Assembly (NCBI RefSeq): GCF_049243625.1
Contig: NZ_CP046975.1
Direction: 5' to 3' (one strand)
DNA from: Corynebacterium amycolatum
GTDB lineage: Bacteria; Actinomycetota; Actinomycetes; Mycobacteriales; Mycobacteriaceae
DNA length: 32,000 nucleotides
Below the pieces are notes generated by a model. That model saw only the letters and a program-made list of their open reading frames with translations, did not search any database and was not told the origin of the DNA. This document shows, in pieces, positions 1,738 through 27,447 of the stretch (position 1 is the stretch's first letter; the number at the start of each line of letters is the position of its first letter). Position numbers and translations under genes: made by a program.

Positions 1738-3234
1738 ATGGCTGATAACAAGCTTCCTGCTTCCAGTGGCGACGAGGTAGATGTCGTCCTCATCGGTGCA
1801 GGTGTAATGAGTGCGACGCTGGGTGTGCTGCTCAAGGAGCTCGAGCCATCCTGGTCACAGGTTCTGTTCGAGCGTCTCGATCAGCCCGCCAAGGAGTCTT
1901 CCTCCCCGTGGAACAACGCTGGTACCGGCCACTCTGCTCTGTGCGAGCTGAACTACACGCCGGAGAAGAACGGCAAGGTCGATGTCACCAAGGCTAAGAC
2001 CATTAATGAGCAGTTCCAGGTTTCCCGCCAGCTGTGGACCTCGCTGATTGAAAACGGCACCCTGACTGACCCGAAGGAGTTCATCAACCCGGTTGACCAC
2101 ACCACCTTCGCTCAGGGACCGGAGCAGATGGCGTTCATGCGTCGTCGCTACGAGGCACTTGAGAAGGAGCCGTTGTTCCACGGTCAGGAGCTCATTGAGG
2201 ATCCGGACCGTTTCGCTGAGTACCTTCCGCTGATGTCGGAGGGGCGTGACTTCTCCAAGCCGGTTTCCGCTATTCGTAACCCGAATGGTACGGACGTTAA
2301 CTTCGGTGCACTGACCAAGCAGTACCTGGCCGCACTGTCCGATATGGGTACTGAGATTCGCTACGGACACGAGGTCACCGGTCTGAAGCGCGACGGTTCC
2401 AAGTGGATTGTCACGGTGAAGAACCTGCACACCAAGGACGTTCGCACCCTGGTTGCCAACTTCGTCTTCGTCGGTGCCGGCGGTGACGCGCTGCCGCTGC
2501 TGCAGAAGGCTCGTATTAACGAGATTCGTGGTTTCGGTGGCTTCCCAGTCTCCGGCCAGTGGCTGCGCTGCACCAACGAGGAAGTTATTGCCCAGCATGA
2601 CGCCAAGGTCTACGGTAAGGCTTCCGTCGGCACGCCGCCGATGTCGGTTCCGCACCTGGACACCCGTGTTATCGACGGCAAGCGTGGCCTGCTCTTTGGT
2701 CCGTACGCCGGTTGGAACATGAAGTTCCTGAAGAACGGTAACAACCTGGACCTGATTAAGTCTCTGCGTCCGGCCAACCTGCCGTCCATGATGGGTGTTG
2801 GTGTCCAGGAGATGGGGCTGACCAAGTACCTGATTACTGAGGTTCTGAAGGACTTCGACGCACGTATCGAGTCCCTGCGTGAGTACGTCCCGAACGCTCG
2901 CCCAGAGGACTGGGAGCTGATTGTCGCTGGTCAGCGAGTTCAGGTCATTAAGCCGATGAAGGCTCCGGTCTTCGGTACCCTCGAGTTCGGTACCGCGGTC
3001 ATCAACTCGTGGGACGGCACCATTGCCGGCCTGATGGGTGCCTCCCCGGGTGCGTCCATCGCCCCGGCCGTGATGATCAGCCTGATTGAGCGCTGCTTCG
3101 GTCGCCACATGGGCAAGTGGGCTCCGAAGCTAAAGGAGCTCGTCCCGTCCTACGGCACGCACCTGGCTGATGACCCGGCTCTGTTCAAGGAGGTCTGGGA
3201 GGCTTCCCAGAAGACCCTGAAGTTGGAGCGCTAA
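1738..3234 (+). CDS. mqo: malate:quinone oxidoreductase
   Basis: 498-aa ORF. The N-terminal FAD motif is VDVVLIGAGVMSATLG. Strings characteristic of Mqo are present: SSPWNNAGTGHSALCELNYTP, FPVSGQWLRC, KASVGTPPMSVPHLDTR, GASPGASIAP. AAGGA lies upstream of the ATG. Confidence 0.95.
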   Translation: MADNKLPASSGDEVDVVLIGAGVMSATLGVLLKELEPSWSQVLFERLDQPAKESSSPWNNAGTGHSALCELNYTPEKNGKVDVTKAKTINEQFQVSRQLWTSLIENGTLTDPKEFINPVDHTTFAQGPEQMAFMRRRYEALEKEPLFHGQELIEDPDRFAEYLPLMSEGRDFSKPVSAIRNPNGTDVNFGALTKQYLAALSDMGTEIRYGHEVTGLKRDGSKWIVTVKNLHTKDVRTLVANFVFVGAGGDALPLLQKARINEIRGFGGFPVSGQWLRCTNEEVIAQHDAKVYGKASVGTPPMSVPHLDTRVIDGKRGLLFGPYAGWNMKFLKNGNNLDLIKSLRPANLPSMMGVGVQEMGLTKYLITEVLKDFDARIESLREYVPNARPEDWELIVAGQRVQVIKPMKAPVFGTLEFGTAVINSWDGTIAGLMGASPGASIAPAVMISLIERCFGRHMGKWAPKLKELVPSYGTHLADDPALFKEVWEASQKTLKLER

Positions 3235-18136: not shown

Positions 18137-18591
18137 GAGCATACGGGTAGGCCGTTAGCTGTAGGCAAAGATTCTGAGCTGCTCCCTGGCGTGACTTTTC
18201 CGACCGTTGAATTGGTGTGGGGCAGCGGGCTTTGCTTTTGAGGAGACCACGTTTCAGCTGCGCAATTCCGTGGTAGCGACCCCAAGCCGTCGATGACATC
18301 GATGATGGCGGCAGTGTTGTCGTGATGATTAATAGGCTATTAACAAAGGGCGAGCGTGCGGCGAAGCAAGTGGCTGCACCCGGTAGACGGGCTTAGGCGA
18401 AGTCGCGAAAAATGCGGTTCGAAGTTGAGTAGTGTTTTGCGTGTTAGTATTAGCAGTCCTTTGTATTGAACCGTTTTTGCCGGATCCCAAATGGGTCTTT
18501 GTCAGCGAAGGGGCACTTCAGGCCTCACGCTATATGGGGTCTAGCTACGAATGGTTGCGCACAGATATAGATAGATAGGGAGTAGCCGAAA

Positions 18592-24263: not shown

Positions 24264-24404
24264 CTGTTAAAGTAAAACGTCGGCTGTGACTGCGGTCCAC
24301 AAGTAGTTGCGAGGAACCAGCTGCCAGACGCTGTTTGGTTCCGGGAAAGCCGAGAATGTGGACTGAAAAAACGACCATAATTTGATTCAAGGAGTTAGAT
24401 TTAC

Positions 24405-24674
24405 ATGGCTTTGAACACTGCAGAAAAGGCTGAGATTCTCAAGGAGTTCGGCCTGCACGAGACCGACACCGGTTCCCCGGAGGCTCAGGTTGCACTGCTG
24501 ACCGCTCGTATTCGTCAGCTGACCGAGCACCTGAAGTTCCACAAGCACGATCACCACTCTCGTCGTGGTCTGCTGCTGCTGGTCGGTCGCCGCAAGGGCC
24601 TGCTGCAGTACCTGCAGGACAATGACGTTGAGCGCTACCGTAAGCTGATCGAGCGCCTTGGTCTGCGCCGCTAA
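24405..24674 (+). CDS. rpsO: 30S ribosomal protein S15
   Basis: 89 aa. [49 protein letters not shown] matches S15. AAGGAG lies upstream. Confidence 0.97.
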
Positions 24675-24750
24675 GGTTTCCCTTAAGGTCCTGTTTGTCA
24701 GAGCGTCATTGGTGTAAGTTGCTCTGTTAATTCAAGGCTTTTAAGCTTTT

Positions 24751-24801
24751 AGACCCGCCGTTTGGATTTCCATTGAATGGAAGCTCACGGCGGGTCTTTT
24801 T
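24751..24801 (+). terminator. intrinsic terminator after rpsO
   Basis: AGACCCGCCG (24751-24760) pairs with CGGCGGGTCT (24788-24797). An inner stem TTCCAT-tga-ATGGAA is also present, followed by a T5 tract. A smaller hairpin CAGAGC...GCTCTG lies at 24699-24726. Confidence 0.7.
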
Positions 24802-24827
24802 GGTCACTTGTCGTTGTGGTATTCACT

Positions 24828-24986
24828 CATCGATGCGCTGTAGCGTGGCCACAAGTGAATACCTCATCGACATGTGGAGGGGGCTGATCGACAGCGTGCG
24901 CATAAGTGTCGGGGCACCATCGATAAGACACGGTAATTCGTCGACAAGACACGGTAATCCATCGATGAGTGAAGAGAAGTCATCGA
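24828..24986. repeat. array of seven CATCGA(T/C)-type boxes (TCGA cores at 24830, 24867, 24888, 24920, 24941, 24962, 24983), including an 18-nt direct repeat TCGAyAAGACACGGTAAT x2
   Basis: Read directly from the sequence. Core-to-core spacings are 37, 21, 32, 21, 21 and 21 bp. Two further boxes lie at 25124 (weak) and 25144. The array is in non-coding DNA between the rpsO terminator and pnp. Confidence 0.6.
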
Positions 24987-25092
24987 TAAGTGCCCCCGCT
25001 CCGCAAACTCCTAGAACCCCGCGTAGGTGCAAGAACCCAGATGGCAGTGAGAGATCTCCGATCCGTCCAATACGAGAACTTTCTGCGTTAGC

Positions 25093-25101
25093 TGGTAGAA
25101 T
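25093..25101 (+). promoter_or_regulatory. candidate extended -10 promoter element for pnp (TGgTAGAAT)
   Basis: TGG-TAGAAT matches the TGn-TAnAAT extended -10 typical of corynebacterial sigma-A promoters. It lies 79 nt upstream of the pnp ATG and downstream of the rpsO terminator. No good -35 element. Confidence 0.35.
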
Positions 25102-25179
25102 GCGTGACGCAAACGAAGTTCATTCGATCTTTTACAGGCGACATCGATGATCGCCGCTATTTCTAGGAGTAAGAAACCT

Positions 25180-27447
25180 ATGGCCAACAGCAAGGCTGTT
25201 GAATTTTTCTTTGATGAGGATTTCGGTATTACCGAGGCCGTTGCTACCATCGACAATGGTGATTTCGGCACCCGCACCATTCGCTTTGAAACGGGTCAGC
25301 TGGCTCGTCAGGCCGATGGTTCGGTGACCACCTACCTGGACGAGGAGACCATGCTCCTGTCCACCGTCACCGCTTCCAACCAGCCCCGCGAGGGCTTTGA
25401 CTTCTTCCCGCTGACCGTCGACGTTGAAGAGCGTATGTACGCTGCGGGCAAGATTCCGGGTTCGTTCTTCCGCCGTGAGGGCCGCCCGTCCACCGACGCC
25501 ATCCTGGCATGTCGTCTGATTGACCGTCCGCTGCGCCCGACCTTCGTCAAGGGCCTGCGCAACGAGGTACAGGTTGTCGTCACCGTCATGTCCTGGGATC
25601 CGAAGGATTGCTACGACGTCGTCGCAATCAACGGCGCGTCAGCTGCAACTCAGCTTTCCGGGCTGCCGGTTTCCGGCGCTGTCGGTGGTGTCCGCATCGC
25701 GCTTGTCGCCGATGACAAGCATCCGGAGGGTGCATGGGTCGCTTTCCCGACCGAGGAGCAGCACGAGCAGGCTCTGTTCGAGATGGTCGTCGCTGGCCGC
25801 ATCGTCACCCGTAAGCGTCGCGGTAAGAACGTCGAAGATGTCGCCATCATGATGGTGGAGGCCGGAGCAGGGGAGACCGTCGTCAAGCGTATTTCTGACG
25901 GCGCACCGGCACCGACTGAGGACATCGTCGCCGCGGGCCTCGAGGCTGCAAAGCCGCACATCAAGGTTCTGTGTGAGGCACAGAAGGGGCTGGCTGAGCG
26001 CGCAGCGAAGGAAACGCAGGAGTTCCCGCTGTTCCCGGCATACAGCGATGAGATTTTTGATGCAGTCGAGAAGAAGTCTGCTAAGAAGCTGGCCAAGCTG
26101 CTCACCATCCCGGGTAAGCAGGATCGAGATGACGCCACCAACGAGTACATGGAGGACGTCGAGGGGCAGCTGCTGGAGCGCTTCGTCTCCGATGATGTCG
26201 ACGAGCAGGCTGCATCTAAGCAGATTCGCGCTGCATACAACGCAGTGATGAAGCAGATTGTCCGTGAGAAGATTCTGGCTGAGGGCTTCCGCATCGATGG
26301 TCGCGGTGTTACCGACATTCGTGACCTGGGCGTTGAGGTCGGCTTGATTCCGCGTGCCCACGGCTCTTCGCTGTTTGAGCGCGGCGAGACCCAGATTCTG
26401 GGTGTCACCACTTTGGACATGCTGAAGATGGAACAGCAGATTGACTCGCTGACCCCGGTTACTTCCAAGCGCTACATCCATCACTACAACTTCCCGCCGT
26501 ACTCCACCGGCGAGACCGGTCGTGTTGGCTCTCCGAAGCGCCGCGAGATTGGTCACGGGGCACTGGCTGAGCGCGCTCTGCTGCCGGTCGTGCCGTCCCG
26601 TGAGGAGTTCCCGTATACCATTCGCCAGGTCTCCGAGGCCCTTGGATCTAATGGTTCGACGTCCATGGGTTCGGTCTGTGCTTCGACTCTGTCGCTGTAC
26701 AACGCCGGTGTGCCGCTGAAGGCTCCGGTTGCCGGTATCGCCATGGGCCTGGTTTCCGGCGAGGTTGACGGTGAGAACCGCTTCGTCGCGCTGACCGATA
26801 TCCTCGGTGCCGAGGACGCATTCGGTGACATGGACTTCAAGGTCGCTGGTACTGCGGACTTCATTACCGCACTGCAGCTGGACACCAAGCTCGACGGTAT
26901 TCCGTCGAAGGTTCTGGCCGATGCCCTGTCCCAGGCTCGTGACGCACGTCTGGCCATCCTGTCCACCATGGCCGAGGTCATCGAGTCTCCGGACGAGATG
27001 AGCGGTCTTGCTCCGAAGATCACCACCGTTAAGGTTCCGGCGTCCAAGATCGGTGAGCTCATCGGCCCGAAGGGCAAGACAATCAACGGCATCACCGAGG
27101 AAACCGGTGCTGATATCTCCATCGAGGACGATGGCACCGTATTTGTCTCGGCAACTTCCGGTAAGGCTGCGGACGCTGCAATTGAGCAGATTAATGCAAT
27201 CGCTAACCCGCAACTGCCGAAGGTGGGCGAGCGCTACCTGGGAACTGTCGTGAAGACTGTCGCTTTCGGTGCTTTCGTCTCCCTGACTCCGGGCCGTGAC
27301 GGTCTGATTCACATTTCCAAGCTCGGTGGCGACAAGCGCATCGAGAAGGTTGAGGATGTCATCAATGTCGGCGACAAGATTCAGGTCGAAATCGCTGATA
27401 TCGACAACCGCGGCAAGATTTCGTTGGTTCCAGTCGAGGACGACTAA
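25180..27447 (+). CDS. pnp: polyribonucleotide nucleotidyltransferase (PNPase / GpsI)
   Basis: ATG at 25180 has AGGAG 10 nt upstream. [28 protein letters not shown] is the typical N-terminus. Two RNase PH domains are present, followed by KH ([17 protein letters not shown]) and S1 ([15 protein letters not shown]) domains. Confidence 0.97.

What the first reader, a model, noticed from the sequence alone, without database searches (positions are those of the whole stretch)
24828..24986. Helically phased array of CATCGA(Y) boxes in the rpsO-pnp spacer
The spacer between the rpsO stop and the pnp start is 505 bp. After the rpsO terminator it carries seven boxes of consensus yCATCGAyr, with TCGA cores at 24830, 24867, 24888, 24920, 24941, 24962 and 24983. 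Two more lie next to the pnp SD sequence, at 25124 (weak) and 25144.

**Phasing.** Spacings between the six central cores are 21, 32, 21, 21 and 21 bp. These correspond to 2, 3, 2, 2 and 2 helical turns, so all six lie on one face of the DNA.

**Longer repeats.** Two adjacent units share a longer repeat (TCGATAAGACACGGTAAT / TCGACAAGACACGGTAAT, 17/18 identical). Other units share ATAAGTG in phase.

**Enrichment.** By eye, ATCGAT occurs only about a dozen times in the remaining 32 kb, mostly as Ile-Asp codons. The local enrichment is therefore tens-fold.

**Palindromic boxes.** Several boxes are themselves 8-10-bp palindromes (tCATCGATGc, CATCGATG).

**Interpretation.** This pattern is what cooperative, one-face binding of a dimeric DNA-binding protein looks like, for example a regulator filament, an iteron-like site or a centromere-like site. 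I know of no described corynebacterial regulator with this motif. Both strands are stop-free across the array. Each yields a 7-residue periodic pseudo-peptide (LIDxxxx on the minus strand), which explains the two ORF-track entries here better than real coding does. An alternative reading is an RNA-level element of a long pnp leader, since PNPase autoregulates through its leader in other bacteria.
Basis: seen in the sequence. Interest (0 to 1): 0.7.

Follow-up and report, generated by a model that had tools for sequence, protein, structure and literature searches.

The report
Species-specific 21-bp repeat before pnp
The evenly spaced CATCGA boxes between the S15 and PNPase genes are real, but they look like a 21-bp tandem repeat found only in Corynebacterium amycolatum, not a protein-docking array; the one box next to the PNPase start is the loop of an RNA hairpin conserved across the genus.

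Summary
**Observation: confirmed.** All nine TCGA cores, the 21/32/21/21/21 spacings, the 17/18 unit pair and the local enrichment are as described.

**Interpretation: mostly not supported.**
- The window is Corynebacterium amycolatum.
- The array is present in all 23 C. amycolatum-complex spacers. It is absent from the nearest species, C. lactis (224-bp spacer), and from nine other Corynebacteriaceae.
- Its core is a 21-bp tandem repeat. One strain has four copies of the near-identical unit instead of two.
- Outside that core, spacings shift between strains (20/31 against 21/32).
- Box positions vary as often as the DNA between them (4/49 against 16/142).
- The tract varies about as much as third codon positions.
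- No compensatory RNA changes were seen, and both strands fold equally well.
- One-base indels rule out coding.
- The unit was found at no locus other than this spacer.

The "helical phasing" is therefore most simply a by-product of slippage of a 21-bp unit.

**The box at 25144 is different.** It is the invariant CAYCGAYGA loop of a 5-bp hairpin that precedes the pnp ribosome-binding site in all 11 Corynebacteriaceae examined. Its stem covaries. Rfam has no match to it. These species lack the Actino-pnp motif found in 73 other actinobacterial loci.

**Any function** of the array is more likely at the RNA level, in read-through transcripts. This is unproven.

The parts
24405..24674 (+). rpsO (ribosomal protein S15) coding sequence
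   Evidence: 89-aa ORF. Pfam Ribosomal_S15 is recorded for the identical protein in 10 genomes.
24751..24802 (+). rpsO intrinsic terminator: 11-bp G+C-rich stem followed by a T-run
   Evidence: Inverted repeat I3, 24751-24761 / 24787-24797, 100% complementary. The T-run is read directly from the sequence. The stem is conserved in strains and the T-run length varies.
24805..24876 (+). Long imperfect inverted repeat (23-nt arms, 87% complementary). Box 1 (24828) lies in its apical part and box 2 (24865) in its 3' arm.
   Evidence: I1. Predicted as a hairpin in every strain haplotype. Scores only 8.9-11.9 bits against Actino-pnp models, so it is not a member of that family.
24828..24987 (+). Array of seven yCATCGAyr boxes, starting at 24828, 24865, 24886, 24918, 24939, 24960 and 24981
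   Evidence: Present in all 23 C. amycolatum-complex spacers and absent in other species.
24917..24990 (+). Core 21-bp tandem repeat (minisatellite). Units begin at 24920, 24941, 24962 and 24983. The two central units are 17/18 identical.
   Evidence: TRF period 21. The repeat finder families D1 and D2. Strain CP066023.1 (L085) carries a 42-bp insertion equal to two extra units.
24876..25002 (+). G-run / C-run inverted repeats (GGAGGGGG...CCCCCGCUCC; GGGGCAC...GUGCCCC) that close the predicted array hairpin
   Evidence: MFE structures. The runs vary in length among strains through 1-5-bp indels.
25007..25016 (+). ACTCCTAGAA, a perfect 10-nt complement of the pnp ribosome-binding region (candidate anti-SD)
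   Evidence: Inverted repeat I6, 25007-25016 / 25161-25170, 100% complementary. Paired in the MFE. Invariant in the strain alignments.
25061..25135 (+). Hypervariable segment containing the pnp-proximal promoter (-10 TAGAAT at 25096-25101 with TGG upstream) and the weak box at 25124
   Evidence: 23/75 columns are variable, in two main allele types. It holds the only good TAnnnT in the spacer after the terminator. The equivalent TGnTAnnAT lies at the same distance from the hairpin in the other Corynebacterium species.
25137..25155 (+). Conserved pnp 5'-UTR hairpin GGCGA-CAUCGAUGA-UCGCC. The box at 25144 is its loop.
   Evidence: In 11 Corynebacteriaceae species, 55/55 stem cells are paired, 2 pairs show double (compensatory) changes, 6 species have a G.U closing pair, and the loop is CAYCGAYGA throughout. 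The region 25136-25181 has 0/46 variable sites.
25165..25169 (+). pnp Shine-Dalgarno sequence AGGAG
   Evidence: Read from the sequence. Conserved in relatives.
25180..27447 (+). pnp (polynucleotide phosphorylase) coding sequence
   Evidence: ORF. 99% identical to C. amycolatum PNPase, with RNase_PH/PNPase/KH/S1 domains.

Best explanation
The array is a lineage-specific repeat tract. It lies in a stretch of roughly 280 bp (about 24800-25085) that has no counterpart in the 224-bp spacer of C. lactis, between the rpsO terminator and the genus-conserved pnp promoter.

**How it arose.** Its regular core is a 21-bp minisatellite made and remodelled by replication slippage. Because the unit is 21 bp, successive boxes fall two helical turns apart automatically, so the phasing is a by-product and not a design feature.

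**What it does.** The tract is not a dedicated protein-binding array and evolves at about the neutral rate.

**Possible RNA effect (inferred, not shown).** Any effect would be on rpsO-to-pnp read-through RNA. There the self-complementary CAUCGAUG boxes and the flanking G/C runs are predicted to pair into two long imperfect hairpins. These are followed by an anti-SD that can occlude the pnp ribosome-binding site.

**The box at 25144 is a different object.** It is the loop of a conserved RNA hairpin in the pnp 5'-UTR, which is transcribed from the proximal promoter.
For: **Tandem-repeat nature.** TRF gives period 21 and the repeat finder gives 21-bp-spaced copies at 100%, 78% and 72% identity to the reference copy. 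One of 23 strains has two extra identical units.

**Lineage-specific.**
- Present in all 23 C. amycolatum-complex sequences.
- Absent in C. lactis, whose PNPase is 89-90% identical and whose spacer is 224 bp.
- Absent in nine further Corynebacteriaceae.

**Phasing not maintained.** Spacings are 20/31 or 20/32 in other strains, against 21/32 here.

**No box-specific constraint.** Variable positions are 4/49 in boxes and 16/142 outside, p = 0.79.

**Near-neutral rate.** In the same 15 sequences, the tract has 17 variable sites in 198 bp. Third codon positions have about 10/89 variable in rpsO and 7/73 in pnp.

**Not dispersed.** The 18-nt unit is found in metagenomes only at this locus, in 4 contigs; the other 12 hits are unrelated singletons. 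There is no blastn match in plasmids or phages.

**Not coding.** One-base indels lie within both ORFs and there is no Pfam hit.

**Box at 25144.** It is the loop of the covarying hairpin.
Against: - The tract is retained in every member of the species complex sampled.
- The box core equals, and is complementary to, the 9-nt loop of the conserved hairpin. The best duplex is -12.1 kcal/mol, P = 0.012 against shuffles.
- A perfect 10-nt anti-SD lies just downstream. By my estimate it would arise by chance about 0.003 times.
- The region folds better than shuffles, with z = -3.2 to -3.9.
- The 32-bp spacing in this strain is also close to three helical turns.
- The conservation test has low power: 14 distinct haplotypes and about 10% divergence. 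Weak selection on the boxes cannot be excluded.
- Only the 18-nt unit was tested for dispersal, and no complete C. amycolatum genome could be scanned.
Confidence: 0.55

Rival explanations
1. The tract is a functional RNA leader of rpsO-pnp read-through transcripts, or of transcripts from a distal promoter. The boxes pair with each other to form long imperfect duplexes that serve as RNase III or PNPase entry sites, as in E. coli and Streptomyces. The anti-SD (25007-25016) silences pnp translation on these transcripts. Boxes complementary to the CAUCGAUGA loop may also interact with the conserved 5'-UTR hairpin.
For: - Two long hairpins are predicted in every haplotype, including the 4-unit allele, with z = -3.2 to -3.9.
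- There is a perfect 10-nt anti-SD, invariant in the strain alignments.
- Box-to-loop complementarity has P = 0.012.
- One substitution (24873 U to G, in two sequences, L090 and L098) converts a U.U mismatch in hairpin I1 into a U.G pair.
- An intergenic hairpin cleaved by RNase III controls pnp in E. coli and S. coelicolor (PMC5872136, PMC10126417).
- Another long-spacer species, C. sp. H128, also has a 21-nt-arm hairpin whose apical region carries an 8/9 complement of its own loop.
Against: - There are no compensatory changes. Of the 13 substitutions that fall in predicted pairs, 7 break the pair, 5 keep it through a one-sided change, and one position (24803) is multi-allelic.
- The minus strand folds equally well, z = -3.40, so the stability reflects DNA-level symmetry and not strand-specific selection.
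- The tract evolves at about the neutral rate.
- It is absent in the sister species, and in species where pnp is not even adjacent to rpsO.
- The loop-complement signal is not significant in H128 (P = 0.15) and is absent in C. endometrii.
- The tract lies upstream of the only clear pnp promoter, so whether it is transcribed depends on unmeasured terminator read-through.
Confidence: 0.27
2. One reading: the boxes are helically phased DNA sites for cooperative binding of a (dimeric) regulator upstream of the pnp promoter.
For: - Six cores in this strain lie at multiples of about 10.5 bp.
- Three boxes are 8-bp palindromes.
- The array sits about -280 to -118 from the predicted promoter.
- TCGA cores vary at only 1 of 28 positions (one search list). 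This is not significant.
Against: - The phasing follows trivially from the 21-bp unit.
- The two spacings that are not 21-bp repeats of the core differ between strains, and box 1 is 37 bp (3.5 turns) from box 2.
- Boxes are no more conserved than their spacers.
- The array is absent from all relatives.
- Most boxes are direct repeats in one orientation.
- There is no regulator gene nearby; the neighbours are truB, ribF and an aldose epimerase.
- There is no other box cluster in the 32-kb window or in 890 kb of fetched DNA.
- Copy number varies without any apparent constraint.
Confidence: 0.12
3. The inverted repeat at 24803-24878, which contains boxes 1 and 2, is a degenerate copy of the Actino-pnp RNA motif (RF01688). 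The array boxes echo that motif's invariant CUUCGAUCGA strand.
For: - By eye, UCGUUGUGG resembles UCGGUAGUGG and CCUCAUCGA resembles CUUCGAUCGA.
- It was the top hit of my 8-sequence model within the 601-bp spacer search: 11.9 bits, E = 0.014.
- It has the same position and strand as the motif in other actinobacteria.
Against: - Rfam gives no hit, even at E <= 10.
- With the 73-sequence model it scores 8.9 bits and ranks 13th among background hits in the window, E = 3.7.
- No Corynebacterium locus matches.
Confidence: 0.03
4. One of the overlapping ORFs encodes a real heptad-repeat peptide (LIDxxxx).
For: Both strands are stop-free across the array.
Against: - One-base and five-base indels among strains fall inside both ORFs (24879; the C-run after 24992).
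- There is no Pfam match.
- The ORFs are a by-product of a 21-bp (7-codon) repeat.
Confidence: 0.01

Closest known systems
Intergenic minisatellites / VNTR loci of Mycobacteriales (for example MIRU-VNTR loci)
   Same: - Short units repeated head to tail in an intergenic spacer of an operon-like gene pair.
- Degenerate older copies lie next to near-identical young ones.
- Copy number differs between strains (2 against 4 copies of the near-identical unit).
- It is a single locus, not dispersed.
   Different: - The unit is 21 bp. From my own knowledge, MIRUs are much longer (tens of bp up to about 100 bp) and form a dispersed family that often carries small ORFs.
- Here the unit is unique to one spacer, and the polymorphism seen so far is 1 strain in 23.
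rpsO-pnp intergenic leader of E. coli and Streptomyces coelicolor (RNase III-cleaved hairpin; PNPase autoregulation)
   Same: The layout matches: rpsO, terminator, long imperfect hairpin(s), an intergenic promoter, then pnp. Read-through plus a pnp-specific promoter is the described transcription pattern (PMC5872136, PMC10126417). The tract here is predicted to form long imperfect duplexes.
   Different: - There is no sequence or covariance-model similarity.
- There is no covariation.
- The predicted hairpins lie upstream of the only recognisable pnp promoter.
- Cleavage and autoregulation have not been tested in Corynebacterium.
Actino-pnp RNA motif (Rfam RF01688; Weinberg et al. 2010, PMC2864571)
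   Same: It is a cis element upstream of pnp in Actinobacteria, with an invariant UCGAUCGA-containing strand. It was found in 73 of 73 non-Corynebacterium loci that include the upstream region.
   Different: - It is not detectable in any Corynebacteriaceae locus or in this window.
- The Corynebacteriaceae carry a much smaller element instead: a 5-bp stem with a 9-nt loop, CAYCGAYGA, next to the SD.
Iterons, centromere-like repeats and response-regulator direct-repeat arrays
   Same: Several direct repeats lie at a spacing that is a multiple of the helical repeat.
   Different: - There is no replication or partition gene, and no regulator gene, nearby.
- The sites are not conserved beyond the spacers, and the spacing is not conserved.
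- The array is not found in relatives.

Membership tests
Tandem-repeat minisatellite (VNTR) | Head-to-tail copies of one unit | tested here: met
   TRF reports period 21, 2.4 copies and 79% matches. The repeat finder reports copies at 21-bp spacing with 100%, 78% and 72% identity to the reference copy.
Tandem-repeat minisatellite (VNTR) | Copy-number polymorphism between strains | tested here: met
   L085 (CP066023.1) has a 42-bp insertion equal to two extra units. The other 22 sequences have two AAGACACGGTAA-type units, one of them with a substitution in L121.
Dispersed repeat / MITE | Same unit at many genomic loci | tested here: not met
   The metagenome scan for TCGAYAAGACACGGTAAT found only the rpsO-pnp spacer, in 4 contigs; the other 12 hits were unrelated singletons. 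There are no plasmid or phage matches. No whole C. amycolatum genome was scanned.
Operator / iteron-type array for a DNA-binding protein | Sites more conserved than the DNA between them | tested here: not met
   4/49 box positions are variable against 16/142 non-box positions, Fisher p = 0.79, in 23 sequences. The test has low power.
Operator / iteron-type array for a DNA-binding protein | Spacing (helical phase) maintained | tested here: not met
   Boxes 2-3-4 are spaced 21/32 here but 20/32 or 20/31 in other strains. Only the tandem core keeps 21.
Operator / iteron-type array for a DNA-binding protein | Conserved in related species, or the same motif at other targets | tested here: not met
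   The array is absent in C. lactis and nine other Corynebacteriaceae. There is no other cluster in the window or in 890 kb of loci. A full-genome scan was not possible.
Operator / iteron-type array for a DNA-binding protein | Cognate binding protein | not testable with these tools
   This needs EMSA, pull-down or ChIP. No regulator gene is adjacent.
Actino-pnp RNA (RF01688) | Covariance-model score at or above the gathering threshold (47.7 bits) | tested here: not met
   There is no Rfam hit at E <= 10. My own models give 11.9 bits (R1) and 8.9 bits at rank 13 (R2). True members score 46-76 bits.
RNase III-processed rpsO-pnp intergenic hairpin (E. coli / Streptomyces type) | Conserved long imperfect hairpin between the rpsO terminator and pnp | tested here: inconclusive
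   Hairpins are predicted in all haplotypes, z about -3 to -4. But there is no covariation and the opposite strand folds equally well.
RNase III-processed rpsO-pnp intergenic hairpin (E. coli / Streptomyces type) | RNase III cleavage and PNPase-dependent autoregulation | not testable with these tools
   This needs an rnc or pnp mutant and 5'-end mapping.
Corynebacteriaceae pnp 5'-UTR hairpin (applies to the box at 25144 only) | 5-bp stem kept by covariation, an invariant 9-nt loop CAYCGAYGA, and a position just 5' of the pnp SD | tested here: met
   In 11 species, 55/55 cells are paired, 2 pairs show double changes, the covariation score is 0.364 with 0/500 shuffles reaching it, and slid controls give 16-58% paired. 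G.U closing pairs in 6 species make the structure strand-specific.
Protein-coding repeat | Reading frame preserved among strains | tested here: not met
   One-base deletion at 24879 and a C-run of variable length (+1, +5) lie inside both ORFs. There is no Pfam hit.

The most novel reading that the evidence does not exclude
The small hairpin with the invariant CAYCGAYGA loop would be the Corynebacteriaceae replacement for the Actino-pnp motif, that is, the site through which PNPase (or RNase III or another factor) controls its own mRNA. C. amycolatum would then have evolved an upstream array of sequences identical, and so complementary, to that loop. In read-through transcripts these would pair with or compete for the hairpin and, together with the anti-SD, set a second lineage-specific layer of PNPase control whose strength is tuned by repeat copy number.
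Probability: 0.12. Interest if true: 0.6.

Novelty: new member of a known kind. Interest (0 to 1): 0.27.

Why it matters
**The array itself matters little.** It is a species-specific minisatellite. It could serve as a strain-typing marker for C. amycolatum, an opportunistic skin bacterium. It is also a caution that a 21-bp tandem repeat mimics helical phasing.

**The by-product is of more interest.** All Corynebacteriaceae examined lack the Actino-pnp leader motif and carry a tiny covarying hairpin with an invariant loop next to the pnp ribosome-binding site. Rfam has no match to it. This gives a concrete, testable candidate for how PNPase expression is controlled in this genus, which includes C. 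glutamicum and C. diphtheriae.

Tried and rejected
1. **Actino-pnp homology of hairpin 24803-24878.** It looked suggestive by eye and with an 8-sequence model (11.9 bits, E = 0.014). I rejected it with a 73-sequence model run over the whole window (8.9 bits, rank 13).
2. **Array derived by duplication of the 5'-UTR hairpin region.** Local alignment finds only the shared 9-mer. Its score is reached by 85 of 500 shuffles, and the flanks show no similarity.
3. **Loop-complement ('kissing') covariation across species.** It is significant only in C. amycolatum (P = 0.012), not in H128 (P = 0.15), and absent in C. endometrii.
4. **RNA covariation within the array.** None was found. Strand asymmetry of folding: none.
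5. **A second genomic copy of the motif.** The 12-mer GACATCGATGAT recurs at 18295 in the spacer upstream of rbfA. It varies among strains and is not notably structured, so it is probably chance.
6. **Mobile-element origin.** There is no plasmid or phage similarity and the unit is not dispersed.
7. **Coding.** There is no Pfam hit and there are frame-breaking indels.
8. **Known Rfam families.** There is none in the spacer.
9. **Literature.** Nothing was found on a Corynebacterium pnp leader or on C. amycolatum repeats.
10. **Known corynebacterial operator motifs.** I compared GlxR, Rex, LexA, ArgR and others from memory only. None fits, and none was tested.

Full report

Yes. rpsO is 24405-24674 and pnp starts at ATG 25180, with AGGAG at 25165-25169, so the spacer is 505 bp.

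- Tandem Repeats Finder gives a 21-bp period at 24917-24966.
- The repeat finder gives copies at 21-bp spacing with 100%, 78% and 72% identity to the reference copy, plus several inverted repeats.
- ATCGAT occurs 5 times in the spacer and 13 times in the other 31.5 kb.
- No other 160-bp window has more than two CATCGA.

CATCGAY is generally over-represented in the window, with 45 matches against 11.7 expected. By inspection the 12-mer GACATCGATGAT reads in frame as GAC-ATC-GAT-GAT (Asp-Ile-Asp-Asp), so codon usage is the likely reason. The local cluster is still exceptional.

**2. Organism and relatives**

The PNPase is 99% identical to Corynebacterium amycolatum proteins. I collected 23 spacers of the C. 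amycolatum complex, 14 of them distinct. They came from genomes carrying the identical S15 or near-identical PNPases, and from four metagenome contigs. All 23 carry the array.

- The nearest species, C. lactis (PNPase 89-90% identical), has a 224-bp spacer with no array.
- Nine more Corynebacteriaceae also lack it: C. meitnerae, C. uropygiale, C. phoceense, C. endometrii, C. simulans, sp. H128, two MAG or isolate lineages at 71% PNPase identity, and one multispecies cluster.
- In C. phoceense and C. simulans, two genes separate rpsO from pnp.

**3. What the array is**

The core (24917-24990) is a 21-bp tandem repeat.
- The two central units are 17/18 identical.
- Strain CP066023.1 (L085) has a 42-bp insertion that is exactly two further units.
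- The outer units are older, degenerate copies.

A 21-bp unit places successive boxes two helical turns apart automatically. That leaves only two spacings that could give independent evidence for phasing.
- Box 1 to box 2 is 37 bp, or 3.5 turns, so it is out of phase.
- Box 3 to box 4 is 32 bp.

These outer spacings are not maintained. Other strains have 20 and 31 or 32 bp, because of 1-bp indels in G-runs.

Constraint on the boxes is not detectable.
- Box positions vary as often as the DNA between them: 4/49 against 16/142, p = 0.79.
- In the same 15 sequences the tract has 17 variable sites in 198 bp. Third codon positions have about 10/89 variable in rpsO and 7/73 in pnp. The tract therefore varies about as much as third codon positions.
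- By contrast, 25136-25181 (hairpin, SD and the start of pnp) has 0/46 variable sites.

Other points:
- The 18-nt unit is not dispersed. A metagenome scan found it only at this locus, and there is no plasmid or phage similarity.
- The overlapping ORFs are not genes. One-base and five-base indels fall inside them and there is no Pfam match.
- Five of the seven boxes are same-orientation direct copies, not palindromes.

**4. RNA-level tests**

The spacer RNA folds better than shuffles: z = -3.9 for 24800-25190 and -3.15 for 24800-25010. It folds into two long imperfect hairpins, because the boxes and the G/C runs are mutually complementary. This architecture is predicted for every haplotype.

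The evidence against a selected RNA structure is as follows.
- The opposite strand folds just as well, z = -3.40.
- No substitution is compensated. Of the 13 substitutions that fall in predicted pairs, 7 break the pair, 5 keep it through a one-sided change, and one position (24803) is multi-allelic.

The evidence in favour is limited.
- A perfect 10-nt complement of the ribosome-binding region lies at 25007-25016. By my estimate it would arise by chance about 0.003 times. It is invariant in the strain alignments.
- The boxes equal, and so complement, the loop of the downstream hairpin (best duplex P = 0.012).

The only convincing -10 element after the terminator is TGG-TAGAAT at 25096-25101. 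It is conserved in position in all relatives. The array is therefore upstream of the proximal pnp promoter, and would be RNA only in read-through transcripts. A weak TTGCTC-17-TAAGCT match at 24719-24747, noted by eye, might also drive transcription across it.

**5. The SD-proximal box is a different object**

GGCGA-CAUCGAUGA-UCGCC (25137-25155) is a hairpin present in all 11 Corynebacteriaceae species examined, at a fixed distance from the promoter and the SD.
- All 55 stem cells are paired.
- Two pairs show compensatory double changes.
- Six species close the stem with G.U, which makes the structure strand-specific and hence RNA.
- The loop is CAYCGAYGA throughout.
- 0 of 500 shuffles reach the observed covariation score, and slid controls give 16-58% paired.

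Rfam has no match to it. The motif is absent upstream of pnp in 73 non-Corynebacterium actinobacterial loci. All 73 of those loci carry the Actino-pnp motif RF01688 at 46-76 bits, and no Corynebacteriaceae locus does. So this family appears to have replaced Actino-pnp with a minimal hairpin.

**6. Leads that failed**

- The first inverted repeat (24803-24878) resembles Actino-pnp by eye and scored 11.9 bits with a small model. It fell to 8.9 bits and rank 13 with a 73-sequence model.
- The array is not a detectable duplication of the hairpin region.
- The loop-complement idea does not generalise to other long-spacer species.
- A second copy of GACATCGATGAT upstream of rbfA (18295) varies among strains and is probably chance.

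**7. Verdict**

The best-supported explanation (about 0.55) is a C. amycolatum-specific, slippage-generated 21-bp minisatellite in a lineage-specific stretch between the rpsO terminator and the pnp promoter. Its apparent helical phasing is a by-product of unit length.

A functional RNA leader remains possible (about 0.27). It would act in read-through transcripts, through long duplexes plus an anti-SD, by analogy with the RNase III-controlled rpsO-pnp leaders of E. coli and S. coelicolor (PMC5872136, PMC10126417).

The phased DNA-binding-site model is the least supported of the functional readings (about 0.12).

The most useful by-product is the conserved Corynebacteriaceae pnp 5'-UTR hairpin.

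Noticed in passing
window 25137-25155; L091 2456-2474; L001, L002, L003, L040, L006, L011, L110-L113 (coordinates): There is a small RNA hairpin, a 5-bp covarying stem with an invariant 9-nt loop CAYCGAYGA, just 5' of the pnp SD in all 11 Corynebacteriaceae examined. Rfam has no match to it. These species lack the Actino-pnp motif that 73 other actinobacterial loci carry. It is a candidate genus-specific pnp regulatory element.
   Followed up: yes
window 25007-25016 and 25161-25170: A perfect 10-nt complementarity (ACTCCTAGAA / TTCTAGGAGT) links a site upstream of the pnp promoter with the pnp ribosome-binding region. It is a candidate anti-SD that would act only in read-through transcripts. 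It is invariant in the strain alignments, so there is no covariation evidence.
   Followed up: partly
window 25061-25135: This segment, around the -35 and -10 elements and the start of the pnp 5'-UTR, is hypervariable: 23/75 columns vary, in two main allele types with many linked differences. The -10 TAGAAT is kept. This is far above the variable fraction at third codon positions in the flanking genes and suggests recombination between diverged alleles.
   Followed up: partly
window 18284-18310: GCCGTCGATGACATCGATGATGGCGGC lies in the 455-bp non-coding spacer upstream of rbfA. It contains the same 12-mer, GACATCGATGAT, as the pnp hairpin, flanked by a G+C inverted repeat. It varies among strains (GATGGT, ATCGGT) and is not significantly structured, so it is probably coincidence.
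   Followed up: partly
window about 18145-18240 (L127, L128, L130, L132 compared with the others): There is an indel polymorphism of about 96 bp in the spacer between the DUF6928-like gene and rbfA among C. amycolatum-complex strains.
   Followed up: no
window 24342-24461: There is a sub-threshold match to the ribosomal S15 leader (RF00114): 26 bits against a gathering score of 39.5, E = 0.0013. It spans the rpsO 5'-UTR and start codon. Similar GCGGTTCGCAGCAGT...GGACTGAAA sequences precede rpsO in the relatives, so it is likely a diverged S15 autoregulatory leader.
   Followed up: no
L110 1-1200 and L112 1-1200: In C. phoceense and C. simulans, two genes (a DUF4288 gene and an oppositely oriented Rce1-like CPBP protease) lie between rpsO and pnp. 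pnp nevertheless keeps the same promoter, hairpin and SD module.
   Followed up: no
L006 about 2740-3000 and L011 about 2730-3000: In two deep-branching Corynebacteriaceae (7-707, AOP40-9SA-29), the PNPase ORF appears to begin about 270 nt upstream of the conserved N-terminus. It would encode a Lys/Ala/Pro-rich (AKKAPAKK-type) N-terminal extension directly after the hairpin.
   Followed up: no
L003 2714-2793 and 2961-2971: The independently long (about 430 bp) rpsO-pnp spacer of Corynebacterium sp. H128 has its own hairpin with 21-nt arms. The apical region of that hairpin carries UAAUCGGUG, an 8/9 complement of that species' loop CACCGAUGA. It parallels C. amycolatum box 1 but is not statistically significant (P = 0.15).
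   Followed up: partly
window 24719-24747: TTGCTC-17 nt-TAAGCT is a possible promoter, noted by eye, whose transcripts would start inside the 5' arm of the rpsO terminator. Such transcripts would escape termination and carry the array as a leader. The consensus scan did not report it.
   Followed up: no
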